From the UHGV virus genome UHGV-0176901: DNA of 16,685 nucleotides; one strand, given 5' to 3'. This document shows positions 3,001 through 6,000 of this stretch, one piece after another. Source of the DNA: a virus. Within the stretch, counting starts at the first letter, position 1, and each line of letters opens with the position of its first letter. The position numbers are program-made.

Positions 3001-6000
3001 GTAGCTTGTCGGAGCTGATCGCCTCCTGACTTTGCAGATTTGCACGACGAGCTCTACGGCGAGAAGCTGCGGTTCCTTTAAATTCTGTTTTTCTGGACAT
3101 AGATTCCTCCCGAATAAACTTTGGCGATGCAATCTCGAAGCCCCTCCTGAGACGGTTGCTTCGGCATTGCATCCCACAGCTTATGTGGTTGGGTGATCTG
3201 GCTTTTCAGCCACGTAGTCGAGTGTTCGACGTTGTTTAAAGAGCCTGCCAGTCTGTTCCGTTTGGCTTCCAGCTTCCTGCTGATGACTAAATAGTACGGG
3301 ACGTAGTTGATTAAGTCAACACAAACACTCTAAATGTGGTTAGTTTTTTTATAACTCTATGTATTTTATTGATTTATATTTTGGGAAAGAAAGTTGGCGC
3401 CAAGTTTTCACCAAAAGTGGTGAAATCCCTAAACCCTGTAGCCCGTCAAGAAGCTGGCCCGTGGTGCAGGAGATTCACTAGGGGTAGTGCAGGAGATTCA
3501 CTAGGGGTAGTGCAGGAGATTCACTAGGGGTAGTGCAGGAGATTCACCACCCTGGTGCAGGAGATTCACTAGGGGGTGGTGCAGGAGCTGCACCCAGAAC
3601 CAGTCACTCTTTTGAACCAGTCAATGAACCTAAAAACATTATGTTCGAACATGTCCGAACAGAGTGTGAAAAAACTCCTGACCGTCACGAAGAAACCGAC
3701 AAGGCATTCGAGGAAATATTCTGGTGTGCAGGCATGCGGAAAGCCGGTCTCGGCAACCATTAGTTACGTCAATGGCGTTTAAACGCCATAGGAAGCGCTG
3801 TAGAGAGATAAACAACTGTCAGACATTAAAATGTACGTGTGGGCGTAAATATTGCGTCAGAATGCGATTCAGGAGGTTTGGGGTTGGTTCACCAGGATTT
3901 GGAGTGTGGTATTTTTGCTTGCATTAAAAATGCACGAGATGTACTATAATAGCGTGGTTACCAATGTTGGGAAGGAAATATGAACAACCTTAAGAAATAT
4001 CGAAAGTCAGTGAGCATCAGTCAAACAATACTTGCTAAGGCAGTTGGATGCACACAGGGGGCTGTCGGTCATTGGGAAAGTGGTCGTCGCATGCCAGATC
4101 TTAAAACATGCCGTGCTCTCGTTGCTTACCTGAACAAGTTAGGCGCAAATGTAAGTCTTGATGACGTGTTCCCGCCGGAACACAAAGCCGCTTAATAAGC
4201 GGGACTGCTCTTTGTAACAACGGACATTCGTCCTACGTCGCTGAAAAGCGAGTTCCAAGATATCTGACCAACTAAGGCTATATGCGTTTCCACGCATACC
4301 TTTCAACTAACTATTCACTATTGGTGAATTAACAAATGACACAAGCAAGTTACAGCAAGCCAACACAGCGAGAAATTGATCGCGCAGAAACTGATTTACT
4401 CATCAACCTGTCAACGCTTACCCAGCGCGGTCTGGCAAAGATGATTGGCTGTCATGAATAGAAAGCACAAATTACAGGAGAAGACACAATGAGTATGATT
4501 CTGATTGAGAAAGCAATGAGAACTAAGGTTGGGAACCCGCGAAGAAAACTGATTCTGCTTAAACTTGCCGATAACGCCAATGACAATGGCGAATGCTGGT
4601 TTTCATATCAAGATCTCGCTTATCAGTGCGATATTAGCAGATCGACAGTAATTGGTCACATTTTAGCACTGGAAAAGACTGGGGTTTTGAATTTGGAGCC
4701 AGGAAGTAACCAGCCGAAGTTTGCTCGCCTGATGCTTAAATAAGCATTAACAAACACAACCAATTGGAGGTGAAAAAATGAGTATGATTCTGATGGTGAA
4801 GGCAATGGGAGCCAAAGTTGGAAACCCGCTCAGAAAACTGGTTCTGCTTAAACTTGCCGATAACGCCAATGACAATGGCGAATGCTGGCCTTCATATCAG
4901 CATATCGCTGACCAGTGCGAGATTAGCAAACGCTCCGTGATTAACCATATTGAGGCTCTTTGTGAGGCTGGCTTGCTAAAAAAAGTCACCCGAAAAGGTG
5001 AAAAAGGCAACTCAAGTAATATCTATATTCTTCGGCTTGGGGGTGCAGGAGATTCACTAGGGGTAGTGCAGGAGATTCACCACCCTGGTGCAGGAGATTC
5101 ACTAGGGGGTGGTGCAGGAGCTGCACCCAGAACCAGTCACTCTTTTGAACCAGTCAATGAACCTAAAAACATTATGTTCGAACATGTCCGAACAGAGTGT
5201 GAAAAAACTCCTGACCGTCACGAAGAAACCGACAAGGCATTCGAGGAAATATTCTGGTGTGCAGGCATGCGGAAAGCCGGGAAGAAAAACGCAGCTTCAG
5301 CATTCAGAACACAGTTCAGGGAATGGCGTAAAACTACAAGGGGTACGGCAAGCGAGTTTGCCACGATGCTGGCAGAAGACATCGCATGCAGGAGTGGTAA
5401 GCAGTTCGGATTCGACAGGTTGTTACCATCGAGCTACCTGAACGGTCAACGCTGGAACGACGAGAAGCCAGAAACTATTCAACCACAATCCAAACCATCA
5501 TCCGCAATCACCGTATCGAAAACTGGCTACGTGTTTTTCGACAGGTGAACCATGAAATCAAAAATCAAATCGCTACTGGTCGCTGGTTATAACCACGGCT
5601 GGTTAAGTATTTCGTTTGTCGATTTCTGGTTTAAAAATCTCAATCCGAGGGAATCATGAGGCCAAGTGAACTCAGCGACCTGCTTTGGGCGCAGGTTGAC
5701 AGGGTGGCTCCGCACCTGTTGCCAAACGGCAAGAAAGAGGGGCATGAGTGGGTTGCCGGTAACGTCAACGGTGACAAGGGAAACAGCCTTAAGGTCAACC
5801 TTAGCGGCAAGAAAAAATGGGCTGATTTCGCTGAGGGAGACGGCGGTGACATGCTTGATTTGTGGATGGCATGTCGTGGAATTAACCTGCATCAGGCTAT
5901 GCAGGAAGCGAAAGCATTTCTCGGAATCAAGGATGACGATCACCATTTCGATGCCAAACGTGAGAAGAAATTCTCCAGACCTGACCGCAAGAAAATCGCC

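What the first reader, a model, noticed from the sequence alone, without database searches (positions are those of the whole stretch)
3462..3747. Orphan second origin: duplicated O-internal ori segment with iteron expansion (6 vs 4)
A segment of about 285 bp is near-identical to the ori region inside the O-like gene (5041..5280), including the palindrome ATGTTCGAACAT, but has six iterons rather than four. It lies outside any intact initiator gene, between PL and PR. It could titrate the initiator, act as a second origin or incompatibility/copy-control element, or be a recombination scar.
Basis: seen in the sequence. Interest (0 to 1): 0.65.

Follow-up and report, generated by a model that had tools for sequence, protein, structure and literature searches.

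The report
Extra origin copy replacing phage repressor
A lytic P22-like phage carries a real, inherited second copy of its replication origin where the repressor gene used to be; it is a recombination scar that must bind the initiator protein, but whether it fires as an origin is untested.

Summary
Window 3510-3747 is 100% identical to 5043-5280 (238 nt) inside the O-like initiator gene. Two extra 23-bp iteron units lie to its left, giving 6 iterons against 4.

It is not an assembly artefact. Both junctions recur in three other spanning contigs from other samples and assemblers. Those carry 5 iterons, in two sequence variants.

The copy sits exactly where relatives carry the cI repressor gene, between nutL/PL and PR/cro. 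The lineage also lacks int/xis and has a truncated cII, so it is obligately lytic.

The copy is not a plain duplicate of the present locus. Its right end is fused to a divergent copy of a ~130-bp element that, in other phages, lies between O and the primase gene. It is therefore a collapsed fragment of a replication module.

It evolves as non-coding DNA. Its array uses 22/23-bp units, whereas the resident array is frame-locked at 23+22+24 bp. It keeps every cis part of a lambda-type origin, so O binding is near certain. Firing as an auxiliary origin is plausible but untested; a passive scar is nearly as likely.

No identical arrangement was found in the phage, plasmid or E. coli collections, in GTDB representatives or in IMG/VR.

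Verdict: a new variant of a known kind, of moderate interest.

The parts
3195..3217 (-). nutL-like boxB arm (GGCTGAAAAGCC on the minus strand). It marks the leftward early transcript.
   Evidence: Inverted repeat I1 with 4233-4255. The N_peptide gene lies at 2828-3100/3172 on the minus strand.
3291..3319 (-). PL-like promoter (TTGACT-17-TACTAT).
   Evidence: Promoter scan. This region is homologous to the N-upstream region of the E. coli prophages L002 and L004 up to 3392.
3393..3460 (.). Left filler of 68 bp of unknown origin. It contains the palindrome TTTCACCAAAAGTGGTGAAA at 3406-3425. It begins where homology to cI-bearing relatives stops.
   Evidence: Homology ends at 3392. No match was found in E. 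coli genomes, in the fetched loci or in IMG/VR.
3463..3594 (+). Orphan iteron array: six 17-bp partly dyad-symmetric cores at spacings of 23, 23, 23, 22 and 24 bp.
   Evidence: Sibling contigs carry five iterons, in two variants.
3595..3747 (+). Orphan origin 'tail'. It comprises an AT-rich stretch at 3607-3646 (~70% AT), the palindrome at 3641-3652 with tandem TGTTCGAACA/TGTCCGAACA, and about 95 bp of O-coding sequence up to the equivalent of position 5280.
   Evidence: 100% identical to 5128-5280. Its least stable 40-mer is in the 97th percentile of duplex instability for the window.
3748..3878 (+). Divergent (~77%) copy of a spacer element ('el') whose native site in other phages is between the 35-aa ORF after O and the primase start codon. 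It contains the palindrome ATGGCGTTTAAACGCCAT.
   Evidence: Alignment A2 with phiKp_30 and the IMG/VR contigs L013, L017, L020, L021 and L023. The window's own O-primase spacer lacks it. No Rfam match.
3879..3908 (.). Right filler of 30 bp of unknown origin, lying before the point where homology to OR/PR of cI-bearing relatives resumes at ~3909.
3919..3947 (+). PR-like promoter (TTGCAT-17-TACTAT), overlapping the operator-like palindrome TGCATTAAAAATGCA at 3920-3934.
   Evidence: Read from the sequence. It is homologous to the cI-cro intergenic region of L003 and L004. SNPs at 3931 and 3936 occur among sibling contigs.
3980..4195 (+). cro-like HTH_3 regulator (71 aa).
   Evidence: Pfam PF01381. 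It sits in the same position as cro in L002-L004.
4233..4255 (+). nutR-like boxB arm (CGCTGAAAAGCG).
   Evidence: Inverted repeat I1.
4336..4461 (+). Truncated cII: 41 aa against about 97 aa in relatives.
   Evidence: Pfam Phage_CII positions 1-37 of 91. Homology to relatives ends at 4463.
4489..4743 (+). O': a stand-alone 84-aa winged-helix paralogue of the O N-terminal domain. It ends where the iterons begin in O.
   Evidence: Repeat family D2, 80% nucleotide identity to 4752-4951. 70% amino-acid identity to O residues 1-67. Pfam HTH_36. Found only in this lineage.
4778..5548 (+). O-like initiator gene (256 aa): HTH_36 N-terminal domain, iteron-encoded linker and C-terminal domain.
   Evidence: Annotated 'replication protein O' in phi24B, Min27 and related phages.
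5042..5280 (+). Resident origin tract: four iterons at 5042-5127 (spacings 23, 22 and 24 bp, summing to 69 bp, in frame) plus the tail at 5128-5280. This is the counterpart of the orphan.
5552..5659 (+). 35-aa ORF between O and the primase gene (MKSKIKSLLVAGYNHGWLSISFVDFWFKNL...). The orphan's right junction joins O to the last codons of a homologue of this ORF.
   Evidence: Sequence and alignment A2.
5656..8562 (+). Primase/helicase (968 aa; Toprim_2, with an intein at 6769-7794). It is the presumed partner recruited by O.

Best explanation
What it is (shown): the segment is a genuine, heritable, non-coding second copy of the phage's complete cis-acting origin. It holds the iteron array, the AT-rich stretch, the palindrome and about 95 bp of O-coding sequence.

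How it arose (shown by anatomy; the order of events is inferred): it is the product of illegitimate recombination. A collapsed fragment of an 'O - 35-aa ORF - spacer element - primase' replication module now fills the slot from which the cI repressor gene was lost. The lineage is P22-like and has also lost int/xis and most of cII, so it is obligately lytic.

How it works (inferred): its iteron cores are identical to those in O, so the O initiator must bind it and build a second O-some 1.5 kb upstream of the resident one. The copy also carries the unwinding segment. It lies 142 bp from the -35 of PL and 172 bp from the -35 of PR, two unrepressed promoters firing away from it. That geometry should load negative supercoils onto it. 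It therefore most likely acts as an auxiliary origin, or at least as an initiator-loading site.

How it evolves (shown): it is freed from the O reading frame, so its array slips (5-6 copies; 22- or 23-bp units). It appears to exchange sequence with the resident array, which is locked at 4 because single 22/23/24-bp units would frameshift O.

Why it persists (inferred): the two direct repeats flank essential functions (PR, cro, the 5' half of O). Homologous deletion between them would be lethal, so persistence needs no selection.
For: Duplication and iterons.

Reality of the duplication: identical junctions occur in L005, L006 and L099 (other samples; MEGAHIT and SPAdes). Other contigs break at the repeat. 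L005's copies differ by a 1-nt deletion. In ERZ19661745 the inter-repeat unitig has depth 52 against 66 for the flank, i.e. single copy per genome.

cI slot: relatives L002, L003 and L004 have a 696-bp LexA-family gene exactly between window 3392 and ~3909.

Lytic lifestyle: in L096, L098 and L099 the early-left operon runs straight into the tailspike gene, with no integrase and no Peptidase_S24 repressor. cII is 41 aa.

Collapsed module: the element right of the copy is native to the O-primase spacer in phiKp_30 and five IMG/VR contigs and is absent from the window's own spacer.

Non-coding evolution: orphan lengths are 285, 257 and 260 bp, which differ by non-multiples of 3, and the array is the variation hot-spot in an otherwise ~99.7% identical 7.3 kb.

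Origin features: dyad-symmetric cores at about two-turn spacing, followed by a 70% AT segment in the 97th percentile of instability.

Frame lock and natural variation: intact O genes of relatives carry 7 and 9 iterons in in-frame 21/24-bp units.

Established knowledge: lambda O binds cloned origin fragments whatever their context (PMC4488673; PMC7466680). [quoted passage not shown] SPP1 is a phage with one origin inside the initiator gene and a second copy elsewhere (PMC3485210).
Against: There is no direct evidence of O binding or of initiation at either copy. 'Origin' is assigned by analogy with ori-lambda, and the initiator is not a lambda-O homologue (Pfam HTH_36, not PF04492). The minimal origin of this family has not, to my knowledge, been mapped.

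The sibling contigs differ by only ~0.3%, so retention of the copy says nothing about selection.

The lethal-deletion trap explains persistence without any function.

Extra initiator sites are inhibitory for lambda when supplied in trans.

The AT-rich stretch is only moderately unstable.

The divergent-promoter supercoiling argument is inference only. No promoter was predicted inside the segment.
Confidence: 0.45

Rival explanations
1. Passive recombination scar. The copy binds some O protein but never fires and has no selected role. It persists because recombination between the two repeats would delete PR, cro and the 5' half of O, which is lethal, and because too little time has passed for an illegitimate deletion to remove it.
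For: The region holds several scars: a truncated cII, the O' remnant, and two filler pieces of unknown origin. Sibling contigs are ~99.7% identical, so there is no signal of conservation. The arrangement is confined to one narrow lineage. It is absent from 150 related phage records (151 matching places in all; the one extra is phiKp_30's record cut inside its own array), from E. coli genomes, from plasmids, from GTDB representatives and from IMG/VR. The relative phiKp_30 lost cI by a simple deletion with no origin copy and is a viable isolate.
Against: The copy keeps every cis part of the origin rather than a random piece. All three array variants hold more iterons than the resident array, never fewer. 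The differences seen fall in spacers or the edge positions of the iterons, and none falls in the 15-bp central core. That last point is weak, because arrays evolve by unit copying and by exchange with the resident array.
Confidence: 0.35
2. Negative or switching element. The extra array would titrate O. Alternatively it would pair with the resident O-some ('handcuffing', as for P1 incA or F incC), or act as a protein-DNA barrier that stalls forks and promotes the theta-to-sigma switch, as proposed for SPP1 oriR.
For: Ectopic ori-lambda copies arrest lambda replication through O binding alone (PMC4488673; PMC3349717). The SPP1 model has G38P bound at oriR blocking forks (PMC3485210). The two arrays lie in direct orientation ~1.45 kb apart, a loopable distance. 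A headful-packaging phage needs concatemers.
Against: Slowing replication is hard to reconcile with an obligately lytic lifestyle. The decoy effect in lambda needed 20-40 plasmid copies per cell, whereas here there is one extra site per genome. Control iterons of plasmids lack an unwinding segment, and this copy has one. Nothing here tests fork arrest.
Confidence: 0.12
3. Assembly artefact: a repeat mis-join, or an expansion or collapse of the iteron array in a short-read metagenome assembly.
For: The window is a SPAdes metagenome contig. The 238-nt perfect repeat exceeds typical k-mer sizes. The count of six iterons is seen only in this contig. Several assemblies break at the repeat.
Against: Both junctions are reproduced in L005, L006 and L099 from other samples and with another assembler. 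In L005 the copies differ by an indel and by their spacers, so each exact repeat is shorter than k=119 and the path is unambiguous. L005 is a MEGAHIT contig labelled flag_3; from my own knowledge of MEGAHIT headers this marks a stand-alone loop, i.e. a closed genome. The depth of the inter-repeat unitig matches the flank.
Confidence: 0.03
4. The 1,533-bp repeat unit (element-PR-cro-cII'-O'-5' O plus origin) is a dynamic amplicon. Unequal crossing-over or pop-out between the repeats would yield tandem arrays, or lambda-dv-like mini-circles that replicate in trans. The two-copy form would then be just one state.
For: Two MEGAHIT contigs, L074 and L108, are perfect closed loops of 1,533+119 bp. 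The lineage encodes a Rad52-family annealing protein and an anti-RecBCD protein.
Against: In ERZ19661745 the unit's depth is 52 against 66 for the flank, which means one copy per genome. Graph simplification can also produce closed loops. A popped-out circle would lack the C-terminal third of O (residues 169-256).
Confidence: 0.05

Closest known systems
ori-lambda architecture (origin inside the initiator gene of lambdoid phages)
   Same: It has an array of dyad-symmetric initiator sites at about two helical turns, followed by an AT-rich segment and a palindrome. The resident copy lies in the linker-coding part of the initiator gene. The N-terminal domain and the iterons co-vary as a specificity module: phiKp_30 and L101 use GGGGCAGGAGCTGCCCC with a different N-terminal domain.
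   Different: The orphan copy lies outside any gene, upstream of PR. The initiator's DNA-binding domain is Pfam HTH_36/DnaD_N-like, not Phage_rep_O. Its partner is a Toprim primase/helicase rather than a lambda P-DnaB pair.
Bacillus phage SPP1 oriL/oriR
   Same: One origin lies inside the initiator's own gene, and a second copy of the initiator-binding region lies elsewhere in the same genome. SPP1 is also a headful-packaging phage that must switch to concatemeric replication (PMC3485210).
   Different: The SPP1 origins are 12 kb apart, whereas here they are 1.5 kb apart. The proteins are unrelated as far as tested. The proposed role of oriR as a late origin and fork barrier is not tested here. 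The SPP1 arrangement is a fixed feature of the phage, whereas this one is a recent scar in one lineage.
Satellite phage P4 ori/crr (from my own knowledge, not checked here)
   Same: Two separated clusters of the same initiator-binding repeats lie on one replicon. The replicase is a primase-helicase.
   Different: In P4 both clusters are required in cis and the alpha protein itself binds the repeats. Here a separate O-like protein is the presumed binder, and nothing suggests that the orphan is required.
Control iterons of plasmids and prophage-plasmids (P1 incA, F incC; from my own knowledge)
   Same: Extra initiator-binding repeats lie outside the origin proper and can titrate or pair with the origin-bound initiator.
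   Different: Those arrays lack an unwinding element and serve copy-number control in a stably maintained replicon. This copy carries the unwinding segment and sits in an obligately lytic phage.
Ectopic ori-lambda decoys and the lambda 'inhibition phenotype'
   Same: Additional copies of the iteron region bind O away from the working origin (PMC4488673, PMC3349717).
   Different: Those are multicopy plasmids acting in trans, and they block the phage. Here one copy sits in cis in a phage that evidently thrives in at least 11 samples.

Membership tests
lambda-type phage origin (iterons + unwinding segment) | An array of at least four direct repeats of a dyad-symmetric initiator site at about two-turn spacing | tested here: met
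   Six cores in the orphan and four in the resident, at 22-24-bp spacing. The cores are 17 bp, with 8-14 of 17 positions self-complementary. Chance expectation is 0.07 matches.
lambda-type phage origin (iterons + unwinding segment) | An AT-rich, easily melted segment directly beside the array | tested here: met
   3607-3646 is ~70% AT against 53% for the window, and its least stable 40-mer is in the 97th percentile of instability. This is moderate, not extreme.
lambda-type phage origin (iterons + unwinding segment) | Location inside the initiator gene, in the inter-domain linker | tested here: not met
   The resident copy meets this (5042-5280 within O, 4778-5548). The orphan does not: it is intergenic, and its reading frame is not conserved among sibling contigs.
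lambda-type phage origin (iterons + unwinding segment) | The initiator belongs to the lambda O family (Pfam PF04492) | tested here: not met
   The window's O matches HTH_36 (PF13730) and, weakly, DnaD_N. It has no PF04492 hit. Its C-terminal part is shared with PF04492-type O proteins of relatives.
lambda-type phage origin (iterons + unwinding segment) | Initiator binding and initiation of DNA synthesis at the site | not testable with these tools
   This needs footprinting or ChIP, and 2D gels or marker-frequency analysis.
SPP1-type dual origins (oriL in the initiator gene, oriR elsewhere) | Two copies of the initiator-binding region with an AT-rich segment, one intragenic and one not | tested here: met
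   The SPP1 description comes from PMC3485210.
SPP1-type dual origins (oriL in the initiator gene, oriR elsewhere) | The second copy acts as a late origin or fork barrier that drives the theta-to-sigma switch | not testable with these tools
   No replication-intermediate data are available.
SPP1-type dual origins (oriL in the initiator gene, oriR elsewhere) | Homology of the replication proteins to SPP1 G38P/G39P/G40P | not tested
   Only Pfam domains were scanned. No comparison with the SPP1 proteins was run.
Plasmid-type control iterons (incA/incC-like) | Initiator repeats without an unwinding element, outside the minimal origin | tested here: not met
   The orphan includes the AT-rich segment, the palindrome and 150 bp beyond the last iteron.
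Plasmid-type control iterons (incA/incC-like) | Lowers copy number or confers incompatibility | not testable with these tools
   This needs experiments. The context is an obligately lytic phage.
Simple tandem duplication of the present locus | Everything left of the novel joint is a copy of the sequence left of the resident end-point, and everything right of it is native local sequence | tested here: not met
   Only 238 bp is copied. The sequence right of the joint is a divergent O-primase spacer element that the resident spacer lacks. The left flank (3393-3460) has no counterpart.
Assembly artefact | The junctions are unique to one assembly and the copies are indistinguishable | tested here: not met
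   The junctions are shared by L005, L006 and L099. The copies differ within L005. The depth of the inter-repeat unitig matches the flank.

The most novel reading that the evidence does not exclude
In a P22-like lineage that became obligately lytic, the slot of the lost repressor gene is occupied by a working second origin. Its iteron array is released from the reading-frame lock of the O gene, so it expands and appears to exchange sequence with the resident array. Unrepressed PL and PR fire away from it on either side and drive its opening. The phage would therefore replicate from two origins 1.5 kb apart. That would be a natural lambdoid counterpart of SPP1 oriL/oriR or P4 ori/crr, and a selected step in the transition from temperate to virulent life.
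Probability: 0.25. Interest if true: 0.7.

Novelty: new variant of a known kind. Interest (0 to 1): 0.45.

Why it matters
Lambda-type origins are a textbook case of an origin buried inside its initiator's gene. Extra copies supplied in trans are known to poison replication. This lineage is a natural phage that carries a complete extra copy in cis, outside any gene, and it is evidently successful in many samples.

If the copy fires, it gives a ready-made system for three questions. The first is how transcription-driven supercoiling activates such origins. The second is how two O-somes on one molecule interact. The third is whether the coding constraint limits iteron number in the resident origin.

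It also documents how a temperate P22-like phage turned virulent. The route was messy illegitimate recombination that removed cI, int/xis and most of cII. That is relevant to phage-therapy screening, where 'lambdoid' is usually read as 'temperate'.

If the copy is only a scar, it still illustrates how direct repeats that flank essential genes become trapped.

Tried and rejected
1. I first read phiKp_30 as a chaotic mosaic with two inverted early regions. This was my error: the FASTA file held two loci. Rerunning with subject ids showed that phiKp_30 is collinear with the window.

2. I asked whether the resident O gene changes ancestry at 5280, which would mark the end of a gene-conversion tract. 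It does not. The break against L002 and L021 is at ~5210, and there is none against L101, L013 or L020. The same test showed that the 155-bp tail is 99-100% shared with several relatives. Its identity between the two copies therefore does not prove a recent duplication.

3. Exact-junction scans of GTDB representatives and IMG/VR found nothing. The JGI metagenome scan gave 19 hits, of which only the already known ERZ1034882 contig was real. The 17-mer scan for the spacer element gave mostly chance hits, which I filtered by BLAST down to five true IMG/VR contigs.

4. The origin of the two filler pieces (3393-3460 and 3879-3908) could not be traced.

5. Rfam gave no match in 3000-6000 at E<=1.

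6. The amplicon or mini-circle idea came from the closed-loop contigs. It was weakened by the depth ratio of 52 to 66 in one sample, and it was not testable in the two loop samples.

7. The homologue search with O' returned only itself, so O' looks like a lineage-specific remnant rather than a gene family.

8. One DnaA-box-like match per copy (3673 and 5206, minus strand) is about what chance would give, and I did not use it.

9. The literature search found no report of a cis-duplicated origin in a lambdoid phage in the held library. Absence from that library is not proof of novelty.
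Full report
THE OBSERVATION. The repeat finder reports 3510-3747 and 5043-5280 as a 238-nt direct repeat at 100% identity, 1,533 bp apart, and it finds the palindrome ATGTTCGAACAT in both copies. A search for the 17-bp core GGTGCAGGAG[A/C]T[G/T]CACC finds six sites in the left array (starting at 3463, 3486, 3509, 3532, 3554 and 3578), four in the right array (5042, 5065, 5087 and 5111), and none elsewhere in the 16.7-kb window. Chance expectation is 0.07 matches. The left copy equals the right tract plus two additional 23-bp units at its left end. The right copy lies inside the 256-aa O-like initiator gene (4778-5548). That gene has an HTH_36 winged-helix N-terminal domain and is followed by a 968-aa Toprim primase/helicase gene (5656-8562).

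IS IT REAL? The window is an ENA metagenome contig, ERZ1034973 NODE_1092. Look-ups by exact protein identity found the same region in at least 11 samples from several projects. Three other contigs span the orphan copy with both junctions identical to the window: L005 (MEGAHIT k119, 40.9 kb), L006/L096 (SPAdes, 39.4 kb) and L099 (SPAdes, another sample). L005 carries MEGAHIT's flag_3, which from my own knowledge of that assembler marks a stand-alone loop, i.e. a closed genome.

In L005 the orphan differs from the resident copy by a 1-nt deletion and by all of its spacers. The two copies are therefore distinguishable, and each exact repeat is shorter than the k-mer. Other assemblies behave as a true repeat-unique-repeat structure should. 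Some contigs stop inside the array (L008, L009). In ERZ19661745 the 1,532-bp unique segment is its own unitig, at depth 52 against 66 for the flanking primase contig. An artefact is therefore effectively excluded for the duplication. The exact count of six rests on this one contig, and the other spanning contigs have five.

WHERE IT SITS. The segment lies between an N gene with a nutL-like boxB (3195-3217) and a PL-like promoter (3319-3291, minus strand) on one side. On the other side lie PR (TTGCAT-17-TACTAT, 3919-3947), a cro-like gene (3980-4195) and a nutR-like boxB (4233-4255). In the E. coli prophages that share both flanks, a 696-bp LexA-family cI gene occupies exactly the interval that corresponds to window 3393-3908. 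Homology stops at 3392 and resumes at ~3909. The window has no repressor there. cII is cut to 41 aa (4336-4461). In the full-length sibling contigs the early-left operon runs straight into the tailspike gene, with no integrase or excisionase. This is an obligately lytic descendant of a temperate P22-like phage. The closest isolate, Klebsiella phage phiKp_30 (Lederbergvirus, from sewage), also lacks cI, but through a simple deletion: its PL and PR lie ~170 bp apart. It has a single origin with about ten iterons inside an intact O gene.

WHAT THE INSERT IS MADE OF. The 516 bp that replace cI consist of four pieces:
- 68 bp of unknown origin (3393-3460);
- the origin copy (3461-3747);
- a ~130-bp element (3748-3878);
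- 30 bp of unknown origin (3879-3908).

The element is recognisable. In phiKp_30 and in five IMG/VR contigs, a 90-95% mutually similar version lies between a 35-aa ORF that follows O and the primase start codon. The window's version is only ~77% similar to those, and the window's own O-primase spacer lacks the element. The right junction joins O position 5280, in frame, to the last codons of that small ORF (...RKAG|LGNH* against ...KNLDLSSH*).

The orphan is therefore not a plain copy of the present locus. It is a collapsed 'O - small ORF - element - primase' fragment, truncated on the left within or at the edge of the iteron array, with an internal deletion of ~360 bp. Just downstream lie two more scars: the truncated cII and O' (4489-4743). 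O' is an 84-aa stand-alone paralogue of the O N-terminal domain, with 70% amino-acid and 80% nucleotide identity, and it stops exactly where the iterons begin in O. The whole early-right region thus records several illegitimate recombination events. I cannot reconstruct their order.

HOW IT EVOLVES. From 2250 to 9548 the three spanning contigs differ at about 25 positions in 7.3 kb, and the orphan array is the hot-spot of variation. Three array types exist:
- the window has six iterons, resident-like spacers and 23-bp units;
- L006 and L099 have five iterons, with the left units L005-like and the final spacer resident-like;
- L005 has five iterons in homogeneous 22-bp units.

The orphan lengths are 285, 260 and 257 bp. 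These differ by non-multiples of 3, so no reading frame is conserved. The graded resemblance to the resident array suggests sequence exchange between the two arrays, though this is inference.

The resident array is identical in all contigs. Its spacings are 23, 22 and 24 bp, and only their sum (69 bp) is in frame, so single-unit slippage would frameshift O. By contrast, intact O genes of relatives with in-frame 21/24-bp units carry 7 and 9 iterons and about 10 in phiKp_30. Six against four is therefore within the family's natural range. The asymmetry between orphan and resident is explained by the coding constraint.

WHAT IT MOST LIKELY DOES. Shown: the orphan carries the same iteron cores as the resident origin, the adjacent ~70% AT stretch (97th percentile of duplex instability in the window), the palindrome and ~95 further bp.

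Established for lambda: O binds cloned origin fragments regardless of their context, and binding alone suffices for decoy effects (PMC4488673; PMC7466680). Origin opening needs negative supercoiling and nearby transcription, which most probably acts through DNA topology (PMC3985674; PMC7466680).

Inferred: O assembles on the orphan. The copy lies 142 bp and 172 bp from the -35 hexamers of two unrepressed promoters that fire away from it, so it sits in a domain expected to be negatively supercoiled. That favours opening, so it can plausibly fire as an auxiliary origin. I put this at about 0.45.

The nearly equal rival, at 0.35, is a passive scar. The repeats flank PR, cro and the 5' half of O, so homologous deletion is lethal and the copy is trapped without selection. 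The lineage is also too young for conservation to be informative. A negative or switching role (titration, handcuffing, or an SPP1-oriR-like fork barrier; PMC3485210) is possible but fits a lytic lifestyle less well (0.12). An amplifiable 1.5-kb unit or mini-circle is hinted at by two closed-loop MEGAHIT contigs but is contradicted by the depth in one sample (0.05).

COMPARISON WITH KNOWN SYSTEMS. In architecture both copies are lambda-type origins, but the orphan fails the 'inside the initiator gene' criterion. The initiator is also not a PF04492 lambda-O protein, although its C-terminal part is shared with PF04492-type O proteins of relatives. This is the classical modular exchange of the specificity domain together with its iterons.

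The nearest functional analogues are SPP1 oriL/oriR and, from my own knowledge, P4 ori/crr. Plasmid control iterons differ in lacking an unwinding segment.

No record with this arrangement exists among 150 related phage records (151 matching places; the extra one is phiKp_30's record, which is cut inside its own array). None exists in 5,426 complete E. coli genomes, in PLSDB plasmids, in GTDB representatives or in IMG/VR. I found no paper describing a cis-duplicated origin in a lambdoid phage in the held library.

VERDICT. This is a real and reproducible structural feature, correctly spotted. Its origin is a recombination scar that replaced the repressor gene in a lineage that turned virulent. 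Its function is open, with 'auxiliary origin or initiator-loading site' slightly ahead of 'inert but trapped'. It is a new variant of a known kind, and I score its interest at 0.45.

Noticed in passing
window 6769-7794 (within the primase/helicase gene 5656-8562): An intein of 341-342 aa with a weak LAGLIDADG_3 match interrupts the Walker A motif (GHGK|T). It is absent from the otherwise 98.6% identical E. coli prophage homologue. The insert begins Ala-Cys, ends His-Asn, and is followed by Thr, so the first residue may be Ala rather than the usual Cys or Ser.
   Followed up: partly
window 4489-4743: O' is a stand-alone 84-aa winged-helix protein with its own ribosome-binding site. It is 70% identical to O residues 1-67 and ends exactly at the domain boundary where the iterons start in O. 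It could be an inert remnant or a truncated initiator that competes for iterons. It is found only in this lineage.
   Followed up: partly
window 4336-4461; sibling loci L096, L098, L099: cII is truncated to 41 aa. cI, int and xis are absent, while cIII, kil and N are kept. This is a naturally virulent P22-like lineage seen in at least 11 metagenome samples.
   Followed up: yes
window 3748-3878; L001 32971-33095; L013, L017, L020, L021, L023: A ~125-131-bp element with the palindrome ATGGCGTTTAAACGCCAT and further hairpins lies immediately upstream of the primase start codon in some phages and is absent from others. It has no Rfam match. It may be a leader or regulatory element, or a small insertion.
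   Followed up: partly
window 3920-3936: The operator-like palindrome TGCATTAAAAATGCA lies in the PR spacer. The SNP T3931C breaks it in L005, L006 and L009, and G3936T occurs in L005 and L009. This is consistent with operator drift after loss of the repressor.
   Followed up: no
L074 (ERZ27289119) and L108 (ERZ27289064): These are 1,652-bp MEGAHIT contigs whose first and last 119 nt are identical. They are closed loops of the 1,533-bp repeat unit. They may be a graph artefact, or a hint of tandem amplification or mini-circles.
   Followed up: partly
L001 (Klebsiella phage phiKp_30, LC768498.2) 1-100 and 33620-33740: The GenBank record is linearised inside its own O-gene iteron array, which has about ten GGGGCAGGAGCTGCCCC units split across the record ends. 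The phage independently lost cI and keeps only the C-terminal end of cII.
   Followed up: partly
window 3406-3425: The perfect 8+8 palindrome TTTCACCAAAAGTGGTGAAA lies in the 68-bp filler of unknown origin to the left of the orphan array. It has no match anywhere searched.
   Followed up: partly
window 5128-5210 compared with L002 and L021: There is a mosaic joint inside the origin tail at ~5210. Relatives with a PF04492-type O N-terminal domain differ by 18-24% before that point and by 2-4% after it. The specificity module (N-terminal domain, iterons and AT-rich part) is thus exchanged as a unit against a shared C-terminal domain.
   Followed up: partly
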